Shown here: positions 3,809-17,922 of the stretch, in pieces
Layout: each line of letters begins with the position of its first letter
How positions within the stretch are numbered: the stretch's first letter is position 1
DNA from: a virus
Lineage: Duplodnaviria; Heunggongvirae; Uroviricota; Caudoviricetes
IMG/VR virus record: IMGVR_UViG_2526164632_000023
Reading direction: 5' to 3' (one strand)
DNA: 17,922 bases
Notes under the pieces: generated by a model
Seen by the model: the letters and a program-made list of their open reading frames with translations, nothing else
Database searches by the model: none
Told to the model about the DNA's origin: nothing
Made by a program: the position numbers and the translations under genes

Positions 3809-4096
3809 ATGAAACAGAAAATTTCTGGCTTTACTGCCAGCGGCCCCGCTCGGCCTGAAATCCGCCCCGGCGATATTTTCCGGGATAACTATGGCGGCAC
3901 GGTAACGATAAAAGGCGTGGTAGAACGGCACATTACTTACCGCCGTGAAGGTTATGAATATGACTGCGTGATGCCTGTTTATCAGTTCCGGCGTGATTTC
4001 ACGCTGGTGGGCCATCGTAAAGCCGTAAATCAGAAACGTGCAGCAAGTCATATCCGCAAAATTCGTGAAATGCTGGTCGCAGGGGGTAAAAAATGA
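3809..4096 (+). CDS. Hypothetical protein (95 aa), translationally coupled to the replication ATPase
   Basis: Stop overlaps the start of the 4093 ORF (ATGA). Confidence 0.5.
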   Translation: MKQKISGFTASGPARPEIRPGDIFRDNYGGTVTIKGVVERHITYRREGYEYDCVMPVYQFRRDFTLVGHRKAVNQKRAASHIRKIREMLVAGGKK

Positions 4097-5499
4097 AACT
4101 GGCACCGAACGTAAAACTGTTACCGAAAGATAAACACACTGAGGCGGTTATTTTTGCGGGTGATAATGCTCACTCCTTTGCAGAACATTACATGATTGCA
4201 CAGGCCAAAAAAGCAGGCGATCCCATCCCTCCGGTTTACCTGGGCCGTTATCAGTTAAGCGAACTGGACAACCTGCAGATTGTTGATGAGGGGCGATACA
4301 GGGTAACGGTGATACGCGCCGGAAATATTGACGAAGCGCAGCTGTTAACCATAGCGACAAAACTGGCGATCGCCGGAGTCCAGGAAGCGCGGCTGCTTTC
4401 TGAAAACTTCGAATTACTGGAGAAATGGACCGACCAGCTTCCACGGCTACGGGAGACATGGGAGAGAGGGGAAAGCCTGATCATGAACGGAGGAAAACAA
4501 AAAATCACGCTACCGATTTCATGGGGTTCTGAGGGATTCGACGCGCAGCAAAGCTACGTAATTAAGGGGCTTATTCCGGCTGAATCATTATGCAGCACCT
4601 ACGGGGCCAGCGGTTCTTATAAATCGTTCCTGGCTATTTCCTGGTCGTGCCATGTTGCCACAGGTATGGCATGGGGAGGCCGCAGGGTAAGTAAGGGCGC
4701 GGTTATCTATATCGCTGGCGAAGGCAGTATGGGCGTAAAACGCCGCGTTAAGGCGTGGGAGATAACCCACGACAAGGTGGTTACGGATTTGTGCATCGTT
4801 AACGCGCCTGTCTTCCCTGCATCGCCTGACTATGTGGAGCAGGTTATCAGGACTGCCGGACTTGTTAAGAGCAGAACGGGCGAAAATGTGCGGCTGATTG
4901 TGATCGACACGCTGGCCCGTTGCTTTGGTGGGAATGATGAAAATGATTCCCGTGATATGGGCGCATTTATCCAGGGGTGTGACGCGATAAAGCAGGCCAC
5001 AGGGGCCACGGTACTGGTGGTTCACCATTCCGGCAAGGATGAAACAAAGGGGGCGCGAGGTTCCAGCGCATTCCGCGCTGCACTGGATGCAGAGTACCGA
5101 ATCAGCCGGGAAAATTCAGACGTTACAGCACTGGTGGCGGCGTGTACGAAGATGAAAGACGCAGAGGAGCCAAAAGAGAGCGCATACGACCTTAAAAGCG
5201 TGGAGGTGTTTACCGATACCGATGGCGAAGAGATTGTGTCCATGGTGGTGATTGACGTTCCCCGCGCCCCTGCTGAACTGGAGCGCATAGAGGAGGCCGG
5301 GAACAAGACGGAAAATCACACGGCTTTATGGGGTTGTATCCGGTCACGTATACAGCATGGTGATAAATGCACGATCCCGCTGCTACGTGATGACATGAAA
5401 AAGCTGGGATATGACACAAAACACCTTAAACGATGGTTAGCCAAACTGGAAAAAGACGGCGTGATTTGCGTCGATGGGGATGATGTTCACCCACTGTAA
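4093..5499 (+). CDS. Replication initiator / RecA-fold AAA ATPase (RepA-like helicase, AAA_25-type) of the island
   Basis: 468 aa. Walker A GASGSYKSFLAISW, Walker B LIVIDTLARCFGG, VLVVHHSGKDETKGARGSSA motif typical of RepA-like helicases; followed directly by an iteron array. Confidence 0.8.
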   Translation: MKLAPNVKLLPKDKHTEAVIFAGDNAHSFAEHYMIAQAKKAGDPIPPVYLGRYQLSELDNLQIVDEGRYRVTVIRAGNIDEAQLLTIATKLAIAGVQEARLLSENFELLEKWTDQLPRLRETWERGESLIMNGGKQKITLPISWGSEGFDAQQSYVIKGLIPAESLCSTYGASGSYKSFLAISWSCHVATGMAWGGRRVSKGAVIYIAGEGSMGVKRRVKAWEITHDKVVTDLCIVNAPVFPASPDYVEQVIRTAGLVKSRTGENVRLIVIDTLARCFGGNDENDSRDMGAFIQGCDAIKQATGATVLVVHHSGKDETKGARGSSAFRAALDAEYRISRENSDVTALVAACTKMKDAEEPKESAYDLKSVEVFTDTDGEEIVSMVVIDVPRAPAELERIEEAGNKTENHTALWGCIRSRIQHGDKCTIPLLRDDMKKLGYDTKHLKRWLAKLEKDGVICVDGDDVHPL

Positions 5500-5700
5500 A
5501 AAGTGGGCGTTAAAAGTGGGAATAGTGGGTAATTTAACTGGAATTTAACAAAATCGCCCACTTTCCCACGTGTATACATCCCAAAAAGTGGGCACTAAAA
5601 AAATTCTTATGAAACAGCACGATATAAAACCACAAAATCCCAGGTGGGACGAAGTGGGAAACCATGAAAAGTGGGTAGAAAAAGTGGGCACAGGTGGGCG
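5490..5700. repeat. Iteron array (about 10 copies of (A/G)GTGGG, mostly as AAAAGTGGGNA, two inverted), candidate replication origin
   Basis: Read directly: AGTGGG at 5502, 5515, 5524, 5587, 5653, 5670, 5683; GGTGGG at 5643, 5693; inverted CCCACT at 5490 and 5557. Immediately downstream of the rep gene. Confidence 0.6.
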
Positions 5701-5701
5701 C

Positions 5702-5953
5702 ATGACCAGAAAAACCAGAGATAAGACAACACCAAAATATCGCGCATTAGACATGACAGAGCACGCCTTAAAGGTGGCAATCAGAACGATAGACCGCCAC
5801 GCCGGAGAAGGATACGCGAAAGCACATCCCGAACTGATAAGCGCATTCATGATCACGGCGGCGGCAAATTTTGCCACACTGACAGAACGGGAGATTGCCG
5901 AAGCGGAACAGGTGACAACCATCAACGTTAAAACCGGAGAGCAGACAGCATGA
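5702..5953 (+). CDS. Hypothetical protein (83 aa)
   Basis: Start moved to ATG 5702, just past the iterons; the ORF-track N-terminal 44 aa would be translated through the repeat array. Stop overlaps the ssb start (ATGA). Confidence 0.45.
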   Translation: MTRKTRDKTTPKYRALDMTEHALKVAIRTIDRHAGEGYAKAHPELISAFMITAAANFATLTEREIAEAEQVTTINVKTGEQTA

Positions 5954-6375
5954 CAGCACAGATAGCGGCTTACGGGCGGCTGGTGGCTGACCCGCAGCTA
6001 AAGACCACCAGCAAAGGGACACAAATGGCGATGGCGAGTATGGCGGTTCCCCTGCCATGCAGCCAGGCAGATGACGGAACGGCGACGATGTGGTTATCTG
6101 TCCTGGCGTTTGGCAGACAGGCCGACGCACTGGCAAAACACCACAAAGGCGAACTGGTGAGCGTGGCGGGTAACATGCAGGTGAGCCAGTGGACAGGCCA
6201 GAACGGGGAAACGCGGCAGGGCTGGCAGGTTATTGCAGACAGCGTAATCAGTGCGCGAACGGCGCGACCGGGCGGCAAAAAAGGTCAACAGGGCCAGGCC
6301 ACTGACGCACTGAACAGGGCAAAACAACAGACAAGCCAGCACGATGACCCGTACGGGGATAACATACCGTTTTAA
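5950..6375 (+). CDS. ssb: Single-stranded DNA-binding protein
   Basis: 141 aa; OB-fold-like N-terminal region, Gly/Gln-rich linker, acidic C-terminal tail ending DDPYGDNIPF (canonical SSB tail ends DDDIPF). Confidence 0.8.
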   Translation: MTAQIAAYGRLVADPQLKTTSKGTQMAMASMAVPLPCSQADDGTATMWLSVLAFGRQADALAKHHKGELVSVAGNMQVSQWTGQNGETRQGWQVIADSVISARTARPGGKKGQQGQATDALNRAKQQTSQHDDPYGDNIPF

Positions 6376-6411: not shown

Positions 6412-6954
6412 ATGACAACGCTGACCATTAACCGGAAGCCGAAAGGCATTTACGGCACGCCGCAGAAAACGACGCAGGCGGCGCAAGAGCAGGATAAAAC
6501 CACATCGGCGCATAAAGTGATACCCGATAATCAGAACGCACAGCAGAGCCGCAAACAGAAGACCGCAGGGGCGACACCGTGGCAGCATATGACCAAAAGA
6601 CAGCGCAAAAACCGCCGACGCGTTAACCGCCTCACTGAGATGTGGCCTGACTTATTCAGCCATAAAGCACCGAAGCCGCTTAAGGTGGGGATATTCGACG
6701 ACCTGATGCAGGATATCGCCGTCAGGGGGCTGGCATTCGGGTCGGGGGTATTACGTGCGACGCTGGCATCCTATGCGCAGTCTCCGCGCTATTACCGCGC
6801 CCTGATAGCTGGTGGCGCACGTTACGACCTGAAAGGCCAGCCATGTGGGGAAGTGACACCACAGGAACAGCAGGAGGCAGAAACACGGCTGATGGTGCTG
6901 AATGAGAAGCACAAGCGCCAGCGCCGGGCAGCAAAGGGGGATACATGCCAGTGA
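6412..6954 (+). CDS. ProQ/FinO-domain RNA-binding protein
   Basis: Central region PLKVGIFDDL...LRATLASYAQSPRYYRALIAGGARYDLKGQPCGEVTPQEQQEAE aligns by eye with the ProQ/FinO N-terminal domain as I remember it (PLKIGIF.DL ... LRSALRLYT.S.RY ... RVDLDGNPCGEL). Basic N- and C-terminal extensions. GGGGAAGG RBS before ATG 6412. Confidence 0.8.
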   Translation: MTTLTINRKPKGIYGTPQKTTQAAQEQDKTTSAHKVIPDNQNAQQSRKQKTAGATPWQHMTKRQRKNRRRVNRLTEMWPDLFSHKAPKPLKVGIFDDLMQDIAVRGLAFGSGVLRATLASYAQSPRYYRALIAGGARYDLKGQPCGEVTPQEQQEAETRLMVLNEKHKRQRRAAKGDTCQ

Positions 6955-7357: not shown

Positions 7358-8008
7358 ATGAATGCACGAAAAGCGGTACTGGCAGATAATCCAGAATTGA
7401 TCCTGCGTGTGCTACAGCTGAGATTTGACGAGTCACTGTCGTACCCGCGCATTTCTGCGCAGACTGGTGTCAGCAAAACCGCCATTTTTTCTCTGGTGAG
7501 GCGATTTCACCAGGTATTCACTGACTGGCCTCTTTCCGGTGAATATTCCTGCGGGCAACTGGCCCGGGCTCTTTTCCCGGGGCGATACCCTTCAGCCCCG
7601 ACCGTGACTCAGCCTGTGAAAGCAGAGAAACCCCGCCGGAACCGATTTTCACCGGAGTTTAAATGGAGACTGGTTCAGCAAACTCTTTTACCCGGTGCCT
7701 GTGTCGCACAAATAGCTCGAGAGAATGGAATTAACGATAACCTGCTCTTTAACTGGCGGCATCTCTGGCGTAACGGTGGCCTGCAACCGCCCGGCGAACA
7801 TGAAACATCGCTACTTCCCGTGACGTTAACTCCGGAGCCGGATAATAAAATCCCGGCACCAGTGCAGATACCTGAACAGATAAATACACTGCCAGACAGT
7901 CTGTGCTGCGAGCTGGTTCTGCCGGCCGGAACTCTCAGGCTGAAAGGTGAACTGACACCGGCGTTATTACAGACACTTATCCGCGAAATGAAAGGGAGCA
8001 GCCACTGA
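7358..8008 (+). CDS. tnpA: IS66-family accessory protein TnpA (orfA)
   Basis: 216 aa with HTH-like N-terminus; position and sequence typical of IS66 orfA; stop overlaps the tnpB start. Confidence 0.8.
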   Translation: MNARKAVLADNPELILRVLQLRFDESLSYPRISAQTGVSKTAIFSLVRRFHQVFTDWPLSGEYSCGQLARALFPGRYPSAPTVTQPVKAEKPRRNRFSPEFKWRLVQQTLLPGACVAQIARENGINDNLLFNWRHLWRNGGLQPPGEHETSLLPVTLTPEPDNKIPAPVQIPEQINTLPDSLCCELVLPAGTLRLKGELTPALLQTLIREMKGSSH

Positions 8009-8355
8009 TGATATCTCTCCCTGCCGGTTCGCGTATCTGGCTGGTTGCCGGTATCACCGATATGCGAAATGGCTTTAACGGCCTGGCCTCAAAAGTTCAG
8101 AACGTCCTGAAGGATGACCCGTTCTCCGGGCATCTGTTCATCTTCCGCGGACGCCGGGGTGACCAGATAAAAGTGCTGTGGGCTGACAGTGACGGACTGT
8201 GCCTCTTCACCAAACGCCTGGAGCGGGGCCGCTTCGTCTGGCCGGTCACCCGCGATGGAAAGGTTCACCTTACTCCGGCTCAGTTGTCCATGCTTCTCGA
8301 AGGCATCGACTGGAAGCACCCGAAACGAACGGAACGCGCTGGCATCCGCATATAA
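8008..8355 (+). CDS. tnpB: IS66-family accessory protein TnpB (orfB)
   Basis: 115 aa, MISLPAGSRIWLVAGITDMRNGFNGLA...LWADSDGLCLFTKRLERGRF is the conserved IS66 orfB signature. Confidence 0.9.
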   Translation: MISLPAGSRIWLVAGITDMRNGFNGLASKVQNVLKDDPFSGHLFIFRGRRGDQIKVLWADSDGLCLFTKRLERGRFVWPVTRDGKVHLTPAQLSMLLEGIDWKHPKRTERAGIRI

Positions 8356-8374
8356 CCCGTTGTAAAGTGAGGAT

Positions 8375-9945
8375 ATGGACACCTCACTTGCTCATGAGAA
8401 TGCCCGCCTGCGGGCACTGTTGCAGACGCAACAGGACACCATCCGCCAGATGGCGAAATACAACCGCCTGCTCTCACAGCGGGTGGCGGCTTATGCTTCC
8501 GAAATCAACCGGCTGAAGGCGCTGGTTGCGAAACTGCAGCGCATGCAGTTCGGTAAAAGCTCAGAAAAACTTCGCGCTAAAACCGAACGGCAGATACAGG
8601 AAGCACAGGAGCGAATCAGCGCACTTCAGGAAGAAATGGCGGAAACGCTGGGTGAGCAATATGACCCGGTACTGCCATCCGCCCTGCGCCAGTCTTCAGC
8701 CCGTAAACCGTTACCGGCCTCACTTCCCCGTGAAACCCGGGTCATCCGGCCGGAAGAGGAATGCTGCCCGGCCTGTGGTGGTGACCTCAGTCCTCTGGGG
8801 TGTGATGTGTCAGAGCAACTGGAGCTTATCAGCAGCGCCTTTAAGGTTATCGAAACACAACGTCCGAAACTGGCCTGTTGTCGGTGCGACCATATCGTGC
8901 AGGCAACAGTACCTTCAAAACCCATTGCACGCAGTTATGCCGGAGCGGGGCTTCTGGCCCATGTTGTTACCGGGAAATATGCAGACCATCTGCCGTTATA
9001 CCGCCAGTCAGAAATATACCGTCGCCAGGGCGTGGAGCTGAGCCGCGCCACGCTGGGGCGCTGGACAGGTGCCGTTGCTGAACTGCTGGAGCCGCTGTAT
9101 GACGTCCTGCGCCAGTATGTGCTGATGCCCGGTAAAGTCCATGCTGATGATATCCCCGTCCCGGTCCAGGAGCCGGGCAGCGGTAAAACCCGGACCGCCC
9201 GGCTGTGGGTCTACGTCCGTGATGACCGTAACGCCGGTTCGGAAATGCCCCCGGCGGTCTGGTTCGCGTACTCACCGGACCGGAAAGGTATCCATCCACA
9301 AAATCATCTGGCCGGTTACAGCGGTGTGCTTCAGGCCGATGCTTACGGTGGTTACCGGGTGTTATACGAATCCGGCAGAATAACGGAAGCCGCGTGTATG
9401 GCTCATGCCCGGAGAAAAATCCACGATGTGCATGCAAGAGTGCCCACCGACATCACCACGGAAGCCCTGCAGCGTATCGGTGAACTGTATGCCATAGAGG
9501 CAGAATCCGGGGATGTACAGCAGAACAGCGTCTGGCGGCAAGAAAAGCCAGAGCTGCGCCACTGATGCAGTCACTGTATGACTGGATACAGACTCAGATG
9601 AAAACACTGTCGCGTCACTCGGATACGGCAAAAGCGTTCGCATACCTGCTGAAACAGTGGGATGGCCTGAACGTGTACTGCAGTAATGGCTGGGTGGAAA
9701 TCGACAACAACATCGCAGAGAACGCCTTACGGGGAGTGGCCGTAGGCCGGAAAAACTGGCTGTTCGCGGGTTCCGACAGCGGTGGCGAACATGCGGCGGT
9801 GTTGTACTCGCTGATCGGCACATGCCGTCTGAACAATGTGGAACCAGAAAAATGGCTGCGTTACGTCATTGAGCATATCCAGGATTGGCCGGCAAACCGG
9901 GTACGCGATCTGTTGCCCTGGAAAGTTGATCTGACCTCTCAGTAA
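8375..9945 (+). pseudogene. tnpC: IS66-family transposase TnpC, split by an apparent 1-nt frameshift near 9500-9510
   Basis: ORF 8375-9565 has the leucine-zipper N-terminus, CPACGG...CCRC zinc-finger motif and DDE core; ORF 9565-9945 in another frame carries the conserved C-terminus [26 protein letters not shown]. The second frame is open back to 9484, so the shift lies in 9484-9565. Confidence 0.8.
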
Positions 9946-13149: not shown

Positions 13150-13444
13150 AGCCAGAATTACACCTGATGAAGTCAGGGCACATCTTCGACTTGATGATGA
13201 TTTATCCGGTGAAGGCGAACTTCTGAAAATGTATACCGATGCGGCGCTGGAAGCCTGCCAGAAGCATATCGGGAAACGTTTTGAAGACGGGCTGGAATTT
13301 ACCCCGGCAATGCGTGTTGGTTGCCTGATGTACATCGCTTTCCTGTACGAGAACAGGGAAGCAGTTTCACCAGTGGAGCAGTCTGAACTGCCTATGGCTA
13401 TTTCTGCGCTCTGGTCGGTTTATCGTGATGTGGGGGTGTACTGA
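13142..13444 (+). CDS. Head-tail connector / gp6-like adaptor protein
   Basis: 100 aa, ITPDEVRAHLRLDDD...GELLKMYTDAALEACQKHIGKRF pattern typical of gp6-like head-tail connector proteins; start overlaps the portal stop. Confidence 0.65.
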   Translation: MSEARITPDEVRAHLRLDDDLSGEGELLKMYTDAALEACQKHIGKRFEDGLEFTPAMRVGCLMYIAFLYENREAVSPVEQSELPMAISALWSVYRDVGVY

Positions 13445-13884
13445 TGCCGTGGCAACCATTAAGGCGATGCACTGAGCCGGGCTGTAATAAGCGCGTGAAG
13501 TCCGGCAAGTGTGAAGAGCACAGACGGGCTGTATGGCGTGCAGAGGATGCCAGACGGGGACACCGCCGCGCGCGCGGGTATTCCCGACAGTGGGACAAAT
13601 ACCGCGCCCTGTACCTGAGCAAAAACCCGTTATGCGTGCGTTGTCTGGCTAAGGGGATTTATACGCCAGCTCTTGTGGTGGATCACATCATCCCCATCAA
13701 TGGCGGCGGTGATGTTCTCTTCTGGCCTGAGTGGAACCACCAGGCATTGTGCCAGACGTGCCACAACCGTAAGACGACACGGGAAGATCCAGCCACGAAA
13801 GCGAACCGTAAGGCGGGCATGTATCGCGAGCAGGAAGAACGGGCAGCACACCGTAACGACTGGATGTATGGCGATGATGACTGA
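13444..13884 (+). CDS. HNH endonuclease (packaging-associated)
   Basis: Cys-rich; CVRCLAKGIYTPALVVDHIIPINGGGD...WNHQALCQTCHNRKT contains an HNH-type D-H...N...H arrangement; sits beside terS/terL as in HNH-dependent cos packaging modules. Confidence 0.8.
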   Translation: MPWQPLRRCTEPGCNKRVKSGKCEEHRRAVWRAEDARRGHRRARGYSRQWDKYRALYLSKNPLCVRCLAKGIYTPALVVDHIIPINGGGDVLFWPEWNHQALCQTCHNRKTTREDPATKANRKAGMYREQEERAAHRNDWMYGDDD

Positions 13885-14053: not shown

Positions 14054-14172
14054 GGCCGTCAGAGGGGGTGGGGGTGGTTTTCAGGACGAAACCGTCCCTG
14101 CCGGACACCGACCGCCTCCTCAAATTTTTGTGCACGGGAATTTTTTTGAAAATAATTGGGCGAAAAAAGAAC
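14054..14172. other. Candidate cos/packaging-initiation region between HNH and terS
   Basis: 119-bp non-coding gap with G-rich block (gagggggtgggggtgg), hairpin ggacg-aaac-cgtcc and T-rich tracts, positioned where cohesive-end sites lie in HNH-dependent HK97-like modules. Confidence 0.3.
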
Positions 14173-14529
14173 ATGGCAAGACCACCAAAAGCCCCCGCTT
14201 ACCTGGATGAAATCGCGGTCAGGCAGTGGAAGGAAAAATCGCGCCAGCTTTCCGGACGGGAAGACCTTACCCCCGCCGACTGGAGCAATCTGGAGCTGTA
14301 TTGTGTTAACTACTCCATATACCGCAAAGCCGTCGAAGACCTTGCCACGCGCGGGTTCAGCATTGTTAACAGTCAGGGCAGCGAGAGCAGAAACCCCGCC
14401 CTGAGCGCAAAGGCTGACGCTGAAAGAATAATGATCAAAATGGCTTCTTTGCTGGGTTTTGACCCGGTAAGTCGCCGCAGAAATCCACCGGAAACAGAGG
14501 AAGAGGACGAGCTTGACCGCCTGGCATGA
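14173..14529 (+). CDS. Terminase small subunit, P27 family
   Basis: Start at ATG 14173 (MARPPKAP...). LTPADWSNLELYCVNYSIYRKAVEDLATRGF...SRNPALSAKADAERIMIKMASLLGFDPVSRRR matches the P27-type TerS pattern. Confidence 0.75.
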   Translation: MARPPKAPAYLDEIAVRQWKEKSRQLSGREDLTPADWSNLELYCVNYSIYRKAVEDLATRGFSIVNSQGSESRNPALSAKADAERIMIKMASLLGFDPVSRRRNPPETEEEDELDRLA

Positions 14530-16174
14530 GTACGCAGAAGGCGTAAAAAACGGCAAAATTACGGCCTGTAAACGACTGAAACAGGCCGTTAAACGGTATT
14601 TTTCTGACCTTGAAAACCCCCTTTACACGTTCGATCCGGAGGTCGTGGAGCGGTTTATTGCCTTTTCCAGGGTGTGTCCGCACGTAAAAGGCGCAATGCG
14701 CGGTAGCCCCATTGAGCTGGAGCCGTGGCAGCAGTTCGCCTTTGCGTGCATCCTGGGCTTTAAGGTTAAGGCCACCGGACGGCGCAAATACACCAGCGCA
14801 TTCATTGAAGTGCCGCGAAAAAATGCCAAATCCACGGTCGCCGCTATCCTGGCTAACTGGTTTCTGGTTATGGAAAACGGGCAGCAGGATATTTACACCG
14901 CCGCCGTGAGTCGTGATCAGGCGCGGATCGTGTTTGATGATGCGCGTCAGATGTGCCTTTTATCCCGACCGTTACGAAAGCGGGTAAATATTCAGGCACA
15001 CAAGGTGATACACCCGAAAACCAACAGCCTGTTAAAGCCACTGGCAGCAAAAGCGGCAACCATTGAAGGTACAAACCCGAGTCTTGCCATTGTGGATGAA
15101 TATCACCTGCACCCTGACAACGGGGTTTATTCCGCGCTTGAACTGGGAATGGGGGCGCGTCCGGAGGGGCTGTTATTTGCCATCACCACATCGGGGAGCA
15201 ACGTTGTTTCAGCCTGTAAACAACACTATGACTATTGCTGCCAGATACTGGATGGTGAAGAGGTGAACGAATCCATGTTCGTGCTGATTTACGAGCTGGA
15301 TGATGAAAGCGAGGTTGACGATCCGGCGATGTGGATAAAGGCGAATCCCAATATCGATGTTTCCGTCGATCGTGAAAAACTGGCCTCAACCATCCAGAAA
15401 GCGCGGGGTATTCCGTCGCAGTGGGTGGAAATGCTCACCAAGCGATTCAATATCTGGTGTCAGGGGGCTACGCCGTGGATGGGTAACGGTGCATGGGCGG
15501 AGTGCGCCGGAACGTTCGCGGAGGCGGATTTATACGGTCAGGAGTGCTACGCGGGGCTGGACTTATCATCAACCAGCGATATTTCCAGCGTGTGCTATGC
15601 CTTTCCGGTCGGTAAAAAGATTATGCTGGTTTCCCGTCACTATCTGCCGGAATTTCAGCTACAGAACCCCGCCAATAAAAACCGCGCCATCTATCGCCAG
15701 TGGGTAAAGGCGGGCTGGATACGCACAACACCGGGTGACTGCATTGATTATGACCGTATCCGTGATGACATCATGGCGGATGCAGAGAATTTCAATATCA
15801 GGCTGGTGGGCTTCGATACATGGAACGCCACGCACCTGAGGACGCAGCTACAGGGGGCAGGATTTGAGGTGGAGCCGTTCCCGCAAACATACCTTCGTTT
15901 CAGTCCGGCGGCGAAATCGTTCGAAGTTTTTGTTAACCGGAAGGTGATTGTGCATCGTGGCGATCCGGTGCTGGCCTGGTCAATGAGTAATGTTGTGATG
16001 CAGAGTGACGCGAACGCCAATATCAAGCCGAACAAGAAAAAATCATCCAACAAGATAGACCCGAGCGTTGCGGCTCTGATGGCTTTTGGCACATTCCAGG
16101 CAGAGCATGAGGAATTTGCATTTGATATGAGCGACAGCCACAAAGAGCGGCTTGCGGCGTTTGATGGGGTATGA
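14513..16174 (+). CDS. Terminase large subunit
   Basis: 553 aa; N-terminal ATPase and C-terminal nuclease regions typical of TerL; overlaps the terS end by 17 nt. Confidence 0.9.
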   Translation: MTAWHEYAEGVKNGKITACKRLKQAVKRYFSDLENPLYTFDPEVVERFIAFSRVCPHVKGAMRGSPIELEPWQQFAFACILGFKVKATGRRKYTSAFIEVPRKNAKSTVAAILANWFLVMENGQQDIYTAAVSRDQARIVFDDARQMCLLSRPLRKRVNIQAHKVIHPKTNSLLKPLAAKAATIEGTNPSLAIVDEYHLHPDNGVYSALELGMGARPEGLLFAITTSGSNVVSACKQHYDYCCQILDGEEVNESMFVLIYELDDESEVDDPAMWIKANPNIDVSVDREKLASTIQKARGIPSQWVEMLTKRFNIWCQGATPWMGNGAWAECAGTFAEADLYGQECYAGLDLSSTSDISSVCYAFPVGKKIMLVSRHYLPEFQLQNPANKNRAIYRQWVKAGWIRTTPGDCIDYDRIRDDIMADAENFNIRLVGFDTWNATHLRTQLQGAGFEVEPFPQTYLRFSPAAKSFEVFVNRKVIVHRGDPVLAWSMSNVVMQSDANANIKPNKKKSSNKIDPSVAALMAFGTFQAEHEEFAFDMSDSHKERLAAFDGV

Positions 16175-16422
16175 CGAGAATGAGCGAAACCGAACTACTA
16201 AAAATAATCCGCCGCGTTACCGGAATCAGCCAGCAGCATGACGAACAGGCCACGCAGCCGGACAGCGTGACCGCCGAAAATTATGTGCGTGTTGTAGCGG
16301 AAGTGATGCGCCGTAATGGTATCCAGCTTAATGATGTGGATATGCGCAACATACGGATCCGCGTTCTGGAAATGCTGGCATACCGTCGCCGCGTGGAGAT
16401 GTATCGGGAGAAGGAAAAATAA
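16171..16422 (+). CDS. Hypothetical protein (83 aa) downstream of terL
   Basis: Start overlaps the terL stop (ATGA); no family recognised. Confidence 0.45.
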   Translation: MTRMSETELLKIIRRVTGISQQHDEQATQPDSVTAENYVRVVAEVMRRNGIQLNDVDMRNIRIRVLEMLAYRRRVEMYREKEK

Positions 16423-16457
16423 CTTACCACTGGAAGAAGCCGGAGCGGTTGCGGCGG

Positions 16458-16650
16458 TAACTGGTTGATATTTTCGAAATTCGCCAGCGGCGAACATCGG
16501 GGAAACCAGCCTAACCCGTTGATATTTTCGGGAACAGCCAACGGCTGAGGCCGGATCAACCGACTATCTTTCAGATAGTCACAAACTACGAAATTTTCAC
16601 AGTTTAATTACTCGCCAGCTTAATCGCTAACTCACTGATATTTTCGGAAA
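16458..16650. repeat. Three direct copies of a ~20-bp unit TAAC(N4)TGATATTTTCG(R)(R)AA, with a fourth partial copy at 16767-16779
   Basis: Exact 11-mer TGATATTTTCG at 16466-16476, 16520-16530 and 16636-16646; 15-mer GCCTAACCCGTTGAT at 16509-16523 and 16765-16779; palindrome GACTATCT-TTC-AGATAGTC at 16562-16580. Confidence 0.6.
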
Positions 16651-16790
16651 CCTCGATTTGAGGAGACCGGAACGTCTACATGGCTGCATCACCATAACGA
16701 TGATTTAGCCCACCAGCAACCATAACGATTTCCGTTACAGTTGATGTGCTTTTTTGCTGGTAAGGCCTAACCCGTTGATTCTTCCACAAT

Positions 16791-16848
16791 CCCCCATTGG
16801 GGGAGGCTGGACGGCCTGCTGTGGGCTTTTCCACCATTGGTGGAAAAG
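16791..16848. repeat. Two palindromes centred on CCA-T-TGG (CCCCCATTGGGGG and CTTTTCCACCATTGGTGGAAAAG)
   Basis: Read directly: 6-bp arms at 16791-16803 and 11-bp arms at 16826-16848, each around a single central T. Confidence 0.5.
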
Positions 16849-17385
16849 TGGCGCGACTACAGGGCTGGATCATCAATATGGTGACGCAGCAACAGAGTGA
16901 CCATTAGTCACCTTGTTCTAACTCGCTGTATTCGTTTAATTTCCACCAACTGCGGAAATTGAGAAACTCACCCGCCAGATTCTGAATGGTGAAAATCACC
17001 GGGGATCTGAATAGGCATTTCCTCTATGGAGGTCGCACCGTTTTCGGGAGAAGGTGCGATCATGTTCGTCATACCGGTTCCGTTGAAATGAAATAGCCTT
17101 GTATGGGCATCATCACCATGCAGGGGATCAAAATCTCTGTAGCTTCATGTTGCCGGGACCGCCAGCCTCGCCAAATTTTTGCGTTTGTGAAAAACGAAAA
17201 TTATTACGTGCTTTGCCCTCTCCTGTTTCTGATGTTGTATACTCGCGGCCTTCTAATTGTGCTGGTGCTTTTTTGAGATTGTGGCGCTGTGTATCGATCC
17301 GTATATCATTCGGTGTATCACTTTTGATAAATTGCTACGTGTGAATTTGTTTTTAACTGACAAAAATCAGTGAGTTATGTGAATT

Positions 17386-17922
17386 ATGAAACATATTGTA
17401 GAAGTAATGATCCCCGAAGCGGAGATTAAAGCGCGTATCGCCGAACTGGGTCGTCAGATTACTGAGCGTTACAAAGACAGCGGCAGCGATATGGTGCTGG
17501 TGGGTCTGCTGCGTGGCTCATTTATGTTTATGGCGGACCTGTGCCGTGAAGTTCAGGTATCTCATGAAGTCGACTTTATGACCGCCTCCAGCTACGGTAG
17601 CGGCATGTCCACCACCCGTGATGTGAAAATCCTCAAAGATCTGGATGAAGATATCCGTGGCAAGGACGTGCTGATTGTTGAAGATATCATCGACTCGGGG
17701 AATACACTGTCGAAAGTGCGTGAGATCTTAAGCCTGCGCGAACCGAAGTCGCTGGCGATTTGTACGCTGCTGGATAAACCGTCCCGTCGTGAAGTGAACG
17801 TCCCGGTAGAATTTATCGGTTTCTCGATCCCGGATGAGTTTGTGGTGGGTTACGGCATTGATTACGCACAGCGTTACCGTCATCTGCCGTATATCGGCAA
17901 AGTGATTCTGCTGGACGAGTAA
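17386..17922 (+). CDS. hpt: Hypoxanthine phosphoribosyltransferase (chromosomal core gene)
   Basis: 178-aa product is near-identical to E. coli Hpt as I remember it ([55 protein letters not shown]...); complete, with stop at the window end. Confidence 0.95.

What the first reader, a model, noticed from the sequence alone, without database searches (positions are those of the whole stretch)
16430..16900. Repeat- and palindrome-rich non-coding block at the right end of the island
Downstream of terL and its small companion ORF lie three exact copies of TGATATTTTCG embedded in a ~20-bp unit, a duplicated 15-mer GCCTAACCCGTTGAT (16509 and 16765), an 8-bp-arm palindrome (16562-16580) and two CCA-T-TGG palindromes (16791-16848). 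A related motif CTGATATTACGG sits right after the int stop codon (1229-1240). Repeats shared between the int-proximal and distal ends suggest integrase arm-type sites or attR; alternatively they are packaging or regulatory sites.
Basis: partly seen in the sequence, partly recalled or inferred. Interest (0 to 1): 0.55.

Follow-up and report, generated by a model that had tools for sequence, protein, structure and literature searches.

The report
Phage-regulator mimic array in a satellite
The repeats are real but are not integrase or attachment sites: they are a string of short copies of a control segment (a palindrome next to a consensus site for the host protein IHF) that normally sits inside antirepressor-type genes (roi/rha/ant) of temperate phages, which suggests this phage-satellite island intercepts those phage regulators.

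Summary
The main interpretation fails.

- **Attachment site.** Empty-site and occupied-site comparison puts the attR core at 17386-17404, the first 19 nt of hpt. The block is island DNA 540-930 bp inside it.
- **Arm-type motif.** The likely integrase arm motif is GGTGTATCACTT (17312-17323, plus two tandem copies upstream of int in a near-identical island).
- **Distribution.** The block recurs, as a mosaic, at the right end of E. coli phage-inducible chromosomal islands (PICIs) with different integrases, replication genes and packaging modules.
- **Unit structure.** Each unit is a TAAC-N3-YTGAT box, which read in reverse is the IHF consensus, followed by a variable two-helix palindrome.
- **Homology.** Six window modules and two O157 island units have their best phage match (78-97% over 31-44 nt) inside a roi/rha/ant-type regulator gene. 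In all nine genes checked the match is antisense and within nt 67-211.
- **Precedent.** By my recollection, HK022 Roi and IHF bind this segment of roi. I could not verify this.

I read the block as a mimic array aimed at phage Roi/Rha/Ant regulators. A DNA decoy or sensor is most likely (0.38); an antisense 3'UTR is the main rival (0.25). Binding is inferred, not shown.

The parts
16171..16422 (+). Last ORF of the late operon (phrog_1561, function unknown). It is cut to 83 aa here by a 1-nt shorter A-run. The full-length 93-aa form in relatives ends at the TAA inside the first unit (equivalent to window 16459-16461).
16455..16501 (+). Unit 1. Box TAACTGGTTGATATTTTCG. Perfect IHF consensus TATCAACCAGTTA on the - strand (16458-16470). 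Palindrome TTCGCC-AGC-GGCGAA (16480-16494). Best phage match: antisense nt 123-165 of a Phage_pRha 'DNA-binding protein' gene of Stx2 phages (81% over 43 nt).
16509..16555 (+). Unit 2. Box TAACCCGTTGATATTTTCG. Perfect IHF consensus TATCAACGGGTTA (16512-16524, - strand). Palindrome CAGCC-AAC-GGCTG (16535-16547) with outer helix TTCGG/CCGGA. No phage counterpart found.
16562..16580 (.). Perfect 8-bp-arm palindrome GACTATCT-TTC-AGATAGTC. It also occurs in other islands (L092).
16584..16625 (+). Module with the quasi-palindrome AACTACGAAATTTTCACAGTT. Best phage match: antisense nt 136-177 of a Roi-like (ANT-domain) gene of Salmonella phage ST65 (81% over 42 nt).
16625..16671 (+). Unit 3. Box TAACTCACTGATATTTTCG (IHF consensus with 1 mismatch). 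Palindrome CCTCGATTTGAGG (16651-16663). Its sister units in other islands match antisense nt 122-157 of roi in HK620, H-19B, HK75, HK140, HK633 and Stx phages (91.7% over 36 nt, E 6e-5).
16714..16744 (+). Hairpin module CAACCATAACGATTTCCGTTACAGTTG. It is 96.8% identical over 31 nt to antisense nt 148-178 of the ant gene (P22_AR_N domain) of VT2-Sakai, Min27, P27 and many other Stx phages.
16765..16811 (+). Unit 4. Box TAACCCGTTGATTCTTCC. Perfect IHF consensus AATCAACGGGTTA (16768-16780, - strand). Palindrome TCCCCCA-T-TGGGGGA (16790-16804). It is 87.5% identical over 40 nt to antisense nt 129-168 of phage Lahn2 roi.
16806..16849 (+). Module holding the 11-bp-arm palindrome CTTTTCCACCA-T-TGGTGGAAAAG. 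It is 93% identical over 44 nt to antisense nt 67-110 of the ant/Rha-family gene of Salmonella phage SSU5 and related plasmid-prophages (E 2e-8).
16683..16890 (.). Long imperfect inverted repeat (29-nt arms at 16683-16711 and 16862-16890, 83% complementary) that brackets the last modules.
   Evidence: I1
17312..17323 (+). GGTGTATCACTT, the likely integrase arm-type site of the distal arm. Two exact tandem copies lie just upstream of int in the near-identical island L002 (5036-5059).
17362..17377 (-). Inverted fifth copy of the box (TAACTCACTGATTTTT; IHF consensus with 1 mismatch), 8 nt from the att core. It is a probable IHF site of the attachment-site arm.
   Evidence: (I4)
17386..17404 (+). 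attR core ATGAAACATATTGTAGAAG, the first 19 nt of hpt. This is the true right junction of the island.

Best explanation
The block is a cis-acting mimic array carried at the right end of the island, between the last late gene and the attachment-site arm. It is built from ~30-50-nt modules that are copies of one short segment found inside the 5' part of antirepressor-family genes (roi, rha, ant) of lambdoid, SSU5-like and P1-like (D6) phages. That segment is a two-helix palindrome placed about 10 nt from an IHF consensus.

In HK022 roi this is, to my recollection, where Roi and IHF bind within the gene, with IHF stabilising Roi binding. I therefore propose that the island DNA binds host IHF together with the Rha/Roi-type DNA-binding proteins made by a co-resident or helper phage. 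Each unit carries a different palindrome and so would match a different phage allele. Once the island replicates, the array would act as a multi-specificity decoy or sensor for those regulators.

Shown: the anatomy, the homology, the position and orientation of the matches in the phage genes, the wide distribution, and that the block is neither an att site nor a cos site. Inferred: protein binding and its consequence.
For: (1) The unit is a box plus a variable palindrome with compensatory changes.
- 65 distinct units were collected from 56 distinct downstream regions among 62 related loci.
- Examples: AGCGCAAAATTGCGCT versus AGCTCAAAATTGAGCT; GCGCAAAAATGCGC, GTGCAAAAATGCAC and CCCAAAAATGGG.
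- A common outer helix, inner helix and internal loop are predicted for the units.

(2) The box read in reverse is WATCAANNNNTTR.
- The only 3 perfect matches in the whole window are in the block.
- 37 of 65 units are perfect and 13 have one mismatch.

(3) Six window modules and two units of the O157 island L003 have their best phage hit in a Phage_pRha, ANT or P22_AR_N regulator gene. The exceptions are window unit 2 (no hit found) and the 16562-16580 palindrome.
- SSU5 ant: 93% over 44 nt, E 2e-8.
- HK620 and Stx-phage roi: 91.7% over 36 nt, E 6e-5.
- VT2-Sakai ant: 96.8% over 31 nt, E 1e-4.
- Lahn2 roi: 87.5% over 40 nt, E 4e-4.
- D6 ant: E 2e-4.
- Weaker hits in Stx2_EH2201, Stx1_14744, Lys8385 and ST65.

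(4) In all 9 genes checked, the match is antisense to the island's + strand and lies within nt 67-211 of the gene.

(5) roi of HK022, HK620, Stx2_EH2201 and Lahn2 all carry an IHF consensus at nt 153. In HK022, HK620 and Stx2_EH2201 a palindrome precedes it with the same order and spacing as in the island units.

(6) Rha-family products are known to interact functionally with IHF (PMC4936722). Roi and IHF binding inside roi is recalled from Clerget & Boccard 1996 (PMID 8763934), which I could not read here.

(7) Island unit 1 has perfect 6-bp arms where the coding phage copy is imperfect. This fits selection for symmetry rather than for matching the phage sequence.

(8) The block is found at the right end of PICIs with different integrases, replication proteins and packaging modules. 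1469 of 5426 E. coli genomes hold some match to the 963-nt right-end region.
Against: - No binding data exist for the island DNA. The Roi/IHF footprint in HK022 is recalled from memory, and its exact coordinates are unknown to me.
- The IHF consensus in roi genes coincides with the conserved codons I-N-x-L-G (ATC AAY NNN TTR GG). Part of the 'site' could therefore be a coding by-product that the island copies inherited.
- 15 of 65 units depart from the consensus by 2 or more positions.
- The uniform antisense orientation (9 of 9) is not needed for a DNA decoy and fits an RNA mechanism better.
- IHF is abundant, so titrating it is unlikely to matter. What the island would gain by binding Roi/Rha is unknown.
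- Perfect palindromes can also be maintained without selection, by template-switch correction of quasi-palindromes.
- The weaker phage hits (E 0.02 to 2) are persuasive only collectively.
Confidence: 0.38

Rival explanations
1. Antisense RNA array. The block is the 3' untranslated tail of the island's late (capsid and terminase) transcript. Each module is complementary to the mRNA of a different allele of phage roi/rha/ant. Pairing, nucleated at the matching hairpin loops, would lower or alter expression of those phage regulators. The island's own ProQ/FinO-family protein or the host's could act as chaperone.
For: - In all 9 phage genes checked, the match is antisense to the island's + strand, which is the strand on which all island genes are transcribed.
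- The first unit overlaps the stop codon of the last gene, with no strong terminator before it.
- In islands that lack that gene, the block still follows a + strand gene.
- Complementarity runs 31-44 nt at 78-97%.
- Antirepressor genes are classic antisense targets (P22 sar-ant and P1 c4-icd-ant; my own knowledge).
- The island encodes a ProQ/FinO-family protein at 6412-6954.
Against: - Transcription of the block is not shown, no discrete sRNA promoter or terminator was found, and there is no Rfam match.
- Hairpin mismatches show no strand bias (G-T 12 versus A-C 15). Unit folds are equally stable on both strands (Wilcoxon p 0.37).
- Several units are only ~80% complementary to the best known phage allele.
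- The island copy is more palindromic than its phage counterpart, which complementarity alone would not select.
- The orientations are not independent if the array arose once and diversified by gene conversion.
- Many islands with the block lack a ProQ gene.
Confidence: 0.25
2. A BIME/RIB-like structural element with no link to phage proteins. IHF sites alternating with short imperfect palindromes at the 3' end of a transcription unit would stabilise the upstream mRNA, attenuate read-through into attP/int or host genes, or organise local DNA topology.
For: - The architecture is the same as a genuine BIME-1 found 2.5 kb from a sister island: REP, then an IHF-consensus linker, then an inverted REP, downstream of cueO.
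- The position is at the end of a long unidirectional operon.
- Folding is strong on both strands.
- No strand bias is seen.
Against: - There is no sequence similarity to REP. The REP tail consensus is absent from every island block examined.
- It does not explain why the modules are homologous to one specific spot of phage roi/rha/ant genes.
- Only weak terminator-like sites are present.
Confidence: 0.12
3. Non-functional or recombination-only patches. The modules would be scars of, or substrates for, exchange between islands and phage roi/ant genes (30-50-nt homologies are enough for Red-type recombination). Their palindromes would be kept perfect by template-switch repair rather than by selection.
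For: - The whole right-end non-coding region is a mosaic of short modules shuffled between islands.
- Unit number varies from 1 to 8 in the loci scanned.
- No function has been demonstrated.
Against: - Only the ~45-nt palindrome-plus-box segment of the phage genes is retained, never flanking coding sequence.
- It is retained in more than a thousand genomes, at the same position and in one orientation.
- Compensatory changes keep the stems intact.
Confidence: 0.12
4. Packaging signal. The boxes would be small-terminase (TerS) binding sites or a second cos site.
For: - Box B (CTAACCCG followed by a T-rich tract) resembles the mapped HK97 small-terminase site CTAACCCGATTTTTT, positions 15-29 after the cos cut.
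- The block follows terL.
Against: - The island's own HK97-like cos region aligns upstream of terS at ~14066-14160, with a different candidate TerS site CACGGGAATTTTTTT.
- In islands that use lambda-type cos, the cosN sequence lies upstream of the block, as the literature describes (PMC9026076).
- The window has no lambda cosN.
- Islands with unrelated terminase systems share the block.
- The box similarity is 8-10 nt and was noticed post hoc.
Confidence: 0.04
5. One reading: integrase arm-type sites or attR. A related possibility is a P4 crr-like replication enhancer, which occupies the same position in P4.
For: - The integrase has an arm-binding domain.
- In P4, a repeat block (crr) lies just beyond the distal arm of attP.
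Against: - The attR core is at 17386-17404, so the block is 540-930 bp away.
- The block is shared by islands with other integrases and replication proteins.
- The real shared arm motif is GGTGTATCACTT.
- All 7 copies of the origin iteron AAGTGGG lie at 5501-5688, and none is in the block.
Confidence: 0.03

Closest known systems
Intragenic Roi/IHF binding region of phage HK022 roi, and the equivalent spot in roi/rha/ant genes of HK620, H-19B, Stx phages, SSU5 and D6
   Same: Direct sequence homology (78-97% over 31-44 nt). The layout is the same: a palindrome ~10 nt from WATCAANNNNTTR. Palindromes are allele-specific.
   Different: Here the segment is non-coding, multiplied 4-7 times in tandem with different palindromes, and sits in a satellite island rather than in the regulator's own gene. 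No cognate Rha/Roi gene was found among the island ORFs scanned against Pfam.
BIME-1 / RIB (RIP) elements of E. coli (REP palindromes flanking an IHF site at 3' ends of operons)
   Same: IHF consensus alternating with ~30-nt imperfect palindromes, placed after the last gene of a transcription unit. Number and order of units vary.
   Different: No REP sequence. All units lie in one orientation rather than as inverted pairs. The element is restricted to the right ends of phage-inducible islands and is homologous to phage coding DNA.
Antisense RNA control of phage antirepressors (P22 sar-ant; P1/P7 c4-icd-ant)
   Same: The target class is the same (antirepressor-type genes), and the island modules are antisense to them. 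Hairpins on both partners.
   Different: Those RNAs are discrete, phage-encoded and act on their own phage. Here a satellite would carry a multi-allele array in a 3'UTR. No transcript has been shown.
Lambda/P4-type attP arms (arm-type Int sites plus IHF sites)
   Same: IHF-consensus boxes. One inverted box lies 8 nt from the core. The integrase has an arm-binding domain.
   Different: The array is 540-930 bp from the core, does not co-vary with the integrase, and its repeat is not the arm motif.
HK97 cosB (small-terminase site CTAACCCGATTTTTT) and P4 crr
   Same: An 8-10-nt resemblance of box B to the HK97 site. The position matches that of crr in P4.
   Different: The island's cos-like region is elsewhere. 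No origin iterons occur in the block.

Membership tests
Integrase arm-type sites / attR | Lies within the att arm, typically no more than ~250 bp from the core | tested here: not met
   Core at 17386-17404. The units lie at 16455-16811.
Integrase arm-type sites / attR | The same motif is present on both the int-proximal and distal arms | tested here: not met
   TGATATTTTCG is absent near int. GGTGTATCACTT fulfils this criterion instead.
Integrase arm-type sites / attR | Co-varies with the integrase and attachment site | tested here: not met
   The same units occur in islands at phoQ, allC, yejO and mdtJ that have a different arm motif, GGTGTAGTTAAT.
cos / terminase recognition site | Adjacent to and upstream of terS (or rpp), and contains the cleavage sequence | tested here: not met
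   An HK97-like cos region aligns at ~14066-14160. Lambda cosN in other islands lies upstream of the block. There is none in the window.
BIME-1 / RIB | IHF consensus flanked by palindromic units at the 3' end of a transcription unit | tested here: met
BIME-1 / RIB | The palindromes are REP sequences (GCC[G/T]GATGCG...CTTATC[C/A]GGCCTAC) | tested here: not met
   The REP tail was found only in true BIMEs of the flanking chromosome, not in any block.
Roi/Rha intragenic operator-IHF segment | Sequence homology to nt ~70-210 of a Phage_pRha, ANT or P22_AR_N regulator gene | tested here: met
   gene positions; domains
Roi/Rha intragenic operator-IHF segment | Palindrome next to an IHF consensus with the same order and spacing | tested here: met
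Roi/Rha intragenic operator-IHF segment | Bound by the Roi/Rha protein and IHF | not testable with these tools
   The precedent is recalled from Clerget & Boccard 1996. That paper is not held.
Antisense regulatory RNA | Extended complementarity to a target mRNA | tested here: met
   In 9 of 9 phage genes checked the match is antisense, 31-44 nt long.
Antisense regulatory RNA | The element is transcribed, and its structure is conserved on one strand | tested here: inconclusive
   No promoter was found and only weak terminator-like sites. There is no Rfam family and no strand bias. Read-through from the late operon is plausible but untested.
P4 crr-like replication enhancer | Shares iterons with the origin | tested here: not met
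   AAGTGGG occurs 7 times, only at 5501-5688.

The most novel reading that the evidence does not exclude
Phage-inducible chromosomal islands of E. coli carry, at their right end, a diversifying library of mimics of the self-regulatory segment of helper-phage antirepressor-family genes (roi/rha/ant), one module per phage allele. With it they would capture those regulators as DNA together with IHF, or silence their mRNAs as an antisense 3'UTR. This would be a previously undescribed way for a satellite to sense or manipulate many different phages at once. New modules would be acquired by gene conversion from the phages themselves.
Probability: 0.4. Interest if true: 0.8.

Novelty: new variant of a known kind. 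Interest (0 to 1): 0.62.

Why it matters
How Gram-negative phage-inducible islands sense and manipulate their helper phages is still only partly understood. The papers I could read on these islands (PMC6092414, PMC6739421, PMC9026076, and the two capsid-forming-island preprints) do not mention this right-end block.

Some match to the 963-nt right-end region occurs in 1469 of 5426 complete E. coli genomes. A conserved non-coding array there that copies the control segment of phage Roi/Rha/Ant genes gives a concrete, testable link between satellites and a poorly understood class of phage regulators. The Rha/Roi proteins are known mainly for blocking phage growth when IHF is missing.

It would also matter for engineering these islands as delivery vehicles, because the block might be either dispensable or required. 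More practically, the work places the island's true junction, arm motif, cos-like region and origin.

Tried and rejected
- **attR or arm sites.** Rejected by junction mapping and by distribution across integrase types.
- **Int-proximal 'related motif' at 1229-1240.** Only an 8-mer is shared, and there is no box or palindrome.
- **Known RNA family.** No credible match. The only match up to E = 1 was a eukaryotic lncRNA family at E 0.44.
- **Promoters and terminators.** 0 promoter-like and 4 weak terminator-like sites.
- **Lambda-type cos.** Absent from the window. It is present elsewhere in non-capsid-forming islands.
- **P4 crr-like enhancer.** The position is the same as in P4, but no origin iterons occur in the block.
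- **Gene cassettes between units (integron-like).** No ORFs lie between units.
- **Type III antitoxin-like repeats.** No downstream toxin ORF.
- **REP/BIME membership.** No REP sequence.
- **Strand of a putative RNA.** No G-U versus A-C bias and equal fold energies on both strands.
- **HK97 TerS-site resemblance.** Real but short, and better explained by the roi homology.
- **Box pattern scan of viral contigs.** Returned a mix of islands and chance hits and was not informative.
- **Genome-contig scan with the small ORF.** Returned only one Shigella locus, so distribution outside E. coli and Shigella could not be assessed.
- **Original Roi paper.** Could not be read. Two further literature searches found no open text describing the Roi footprint.
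Full report
**What the window is**

The window holds a capsid-forming phage-inducible chromosomal island (PICI). All the genes named here lie on the + strand:
- a tyrosine integrase with an arm-binding domain (1-1227);
- a RepA-type helicase (4093-5499);
- SSB (5950-6375) and a ProQ/FinO-family protein (6412-6954);
- an IS66-family insertion (ORFs at 7358-9565 were scanned);
- HK97-type head genes, an HNH endonuclease (13444-13884), a small terminase (TerS; to 14529) and a large terminase (TerL; 14513-16174);
- a small ORF of unknown function (phrog_1561; 16171-16422).

The host gene hpt starts at 17386. The 963 bp between the small ORF and hpt are non-coding.

**Check of the observation**

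- TGATATTTTCG occurs exactly three times in the window, all in the block. The expected count is 0.30, and 0 of 200 shuffles reach 3.
- The repeat is really a ~47-nt unit with four copies, at 16455, 16509, 16625 and 16765.
- The stretch folds far better than shuffled sequence on both strands (z about -7.5).
- The 'related motif' after int shares only CTGATATT with the units and has neither the rest of the box nor a palindrome. I treat it as chance.

**Where the island ends**

Almost all 5,426 complete E. coli genomes match the window only from 17385 onwards. Just 8 hold the whole right end. I compared an empty gcd-hpt site with both junctions of a near-identical island in strain ATCC 43886.
- The att core is ATGAAACATA[C/T]TGTAGAAG, the first 19 nt of the hpt coding sequence.
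- attR is therefore 17386-17404.
- The block is island DNA 540-930 bp inside the junction. It is neither attR nor conserved chromosome.

The motif truly shared by the two arms is GGTGTATCACTT.
- Two tandem copies lie just upstream of int in L002, and one lies 63 bp from the attR core (window 17312-17323).
- The expected count is 0.15.
- Islands with another integrase have the analogous pair GGTGTAGTTAAT on both sides.

**The block is a backbone feature of these islands**

The first ~460 bp of the non-coding region recur, as a mosaic, in many other E. coli PICIs. Overall, 1469 of the 5,426 genomes hold some match to the 963-nt region. The hosts include:
- capsid-forming islands next to phoQ in O157:H7, next to allC and next to mdtJ;
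- islands with lambda-type capsid, decoration and TerS genes but no terL;
- a 10.8-kb circular record that is an excised island with a DUF1441 gene;
- islands next to yejO that lack the small ORF altogether.

Integrases, replication proteins and packaging systems differ among these islands, but the block stays. This rules out integrase, initiator or terminase specificity.
- The window's origin iteron AAGTGGG occurs seven times at 5501-5688 and never in the block. A P4 crr-like role is therefore not supported, even though crr occupies the same position in P4.
- Lambda-type cosN in the non-capsid-forming islands lies upstream of the block, as published for rpp islands (PMC9026076).
- This island's own HK97-like cos region aligns upstream of terS at ~14066-14160.

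**Anatomy of the unit**

I collected 65 distinct units from 56 distinct downstream regions (62 related loci). Each unit has two parts.
- The first is a box, TAAC-N3-YTGAT, with a variable N3.
- The second is a two-helix palindrome: an outer helix such as TTCGG/CCGGA, a 3x3 internal loop, an inner 5-7-bp helix and an A/T-rich centre.

The inner palindrome differs between units (34 variants) but keeps its symmetry through compensatory changes.

Read on the other strand, the box is the IHF consensus WATCAANNNNTTR.
- The only three perfect matches in the whole window are units 1, 2 and 4.
- Unit 3, and an inverted fifth box 8 nt from the att core, have one mismatch.
- Among the 65 units, 37 are perfect and 13 have one mismatch.

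I found no strand bias that would point to an RNA on one particular strand. G-T versus A-C mismatches number 12 versus 15, and fold energies are equal on both strands (p 0.37). There is no Rfam match and no promoter-like site.

**The key result**

Searching the modules against phage genomes showed that they are copies of a short piece of phage antirepressor-type genes.
- The commonest unit matches roi of HK620, H-19B, HK75, HK140, HK633 and many Stx phages (91.7% over 36 nt, E 6e-5). The complete 47-nt unit is visible in HK620 roi.
- Window 16806-16849 matches the SSU5 ant gene (93% over 44 nt, E 2e-8).
- Window 16714-16744 matches the VT2-Sakai, Min27 and P27 ant gene (96.8% over 31 nt, E 1e-4).
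- Unit 4 matches Lahn2 roi (87.5% over 40 nt, E 4e-4).
- Unit 1, the 16584-16625 module and two units of the O157 island match Rha/Roi-like genes of Stx phages, Lys8385 and Salmonella phage ST65 more weakly.
- The P1-like phage D6 has the segment in its icd-ant operon.

The encoded proteins carry Phage_pRha, ANT (KilAC) or P22_AR_N domains. In all nine genes examined, the match is antisense to the island's + strand and lies between nt 67 and 211 of the gene. That region encodes the part just after the helix-turn-helix.

Four roi alleles (HK022, HK620, Stx2_EH2201, Lahn2) have an IHF consensus at nt 153. In HK022, HK620 and Stx2_EH2201 an allele-specific palindrome precedes it.

**What this implies**

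From memory of Clerget & Boccard (J Bacteriol 1996, PMID 8763934), which is not readable here:
- HK022 Roi is a DNA-binding protein that binds a site inside its own gene, close to an IHF site;
- IHF stabilises that binding;
- Roi blocks phage growth in IHF-deficient hosts.

The same IHF dependence is described for the Rha products of phi80 and P22 (PMC4936722).

The island block is therefore best described as a tandem collection of mimics of this control segment, each with a different palindrome. I commit to a DNA-level mechanism: IHF plus phage Roi/Rha-type proteins bind the array, which acts as a multi-allele decoy or sensor once the island replicates. My confidence is 0.38. In its favour, the segment is, by my recollection, a known protein-binding site, and the island copies are at least as palindromic as the coding originals.

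The strongest rival (0.25) is that the late transcript reads through the array, which then acts as an antisense RNA against roi/rha/ant mRNAs. That would explain the uniform antisense orientation, the position right after the last gene and the ProQ/FinO gene. It also has precedents in P22 sar and P1 c4 (my own knowledge). No transcript or strand-specific signal was found.

Less likely readings are:
- a BIME/RIB-like structural element, which has the same architecture but no REP sequence;
- neutral recombination patches;
- a packaging signal, given the short resemblance of box B to the mapped HK97 small-terminase site;

**Caveats**

- Binding is inferred, not shown.
- The IHF consensus in roi coincides with the conserved codons I-N-x-L-G, so part of it could be inherited coding signal.
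- Several phage hits are individually weak and persuasive only through their shared gene class, position and orientation.
- The orientations may not be independent if the array arose once.
- Palindromes can be kept perfect by template-switch repair.
- Distribution outside E. coli and Shigella could not be assessed.

**Novelty and verdict**

None of the PICI papers I could read mentions this block. I rate it a new variant of known kinds (operator decoys, antisense control of antirepressors, BIME-like arrays) and moderately to highly interesting.

Noticed in passing
window 17100-17404; L001 2296-2520; L002 4880-4910: The island integrates into the first 19 nt of hpt. It therefore replaces the whole native hpt promoter and 5'UTR with island DNA, which carries a similar GTATACT -10-like element at ~17240. 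It also changes Hpt residue 4 from Thr to Ile (ACT to ATT in the core). In the integrated state the native hpt promoter points into int.
   Followed up: partly
window 14066-14160: Likely cos region of the capsid-forming island. It has a G-run, GACCGCCTCCTCAAA and a T7 tract, and it aligns with the HK97 cos junction. The candidate small-terminase site CACGGGAATTTTTTT differs from HK97's CTAACCCGATTTTTT, which fits the island's exclusive packaging specificity.
   Followed up: partly
window 5499-5700: Replication origin just after the helicase gene. There are seven exact AAGTGGG iterons, in both orientations, around an A/T-rich stretch.
   Followed up: yes
window 7358-9945: An IS66-family insertion sequence (HTH_Tnp_1 ORF, and a DDE_Tnp_IS66 transposase at 8375-9565) interrupts the island between the ProQ-like gene and the capsid gene. 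It is absent from the otherwise similar island L002.
   Followed up: partly
window 16405-16461: The last ORF (phrog_1561) is truncated from 93 to 83 aa by a 1-nt shorter A-run than in L002-L005. In the full-length form the stop codon is the TAA of the first unit's TAAC box.
   Followed up: yes
window 6412-6954: The island encodes a ProQ/FinO-family RNA chaperone homologue. Some sister islands carry PerC-family regulators at this position instead. This could matter if the array acts as RNA.
   Followed up: no
L092 6380-6560: A yejO-adjacent island has an origin-like structure inside its right-end non-coding region. Three direct TTGCGGGTTA repeats, an A/T-rich core and three inverted copies are present. 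The repeat shares TAACCCG with box B.
   Followed up: no
L006 (NZ_CP148328.1, 10,790 bp) and L007 (NZ_CP031350.1): One 'plasmid' record is an excised circular island. Its attP is flanked on both sides by tandem GGTGTAGTTAAT arm motifs and TTGTTCG repeats. Other 'plasmid' records (L007, L008) contain chromosomal genes such as phoPQ and purB, so they look like misassigned chromosome pieces.
   Followed up: partly
L005 7812-7823 and 8679-8690: A non-capsid-forming island carries two lambda-like cosN sequences. One lies upstream of terS, and an exact inverted one lies between terS and the small ORF. This recalls cos1 and cos2 of EcCICFT073.
   Followed up: partly
window 16509-16530 versus HK97 1-30 (L214): Box B and its left flank (CGCTAACCCG in sister units) match 10 contiguous nt of the HK97 left end, which includes the mapped small-terminase binding site. 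This may be coincidence, or a hint that roi segments and cosB share a motif.
   Followed up: partly
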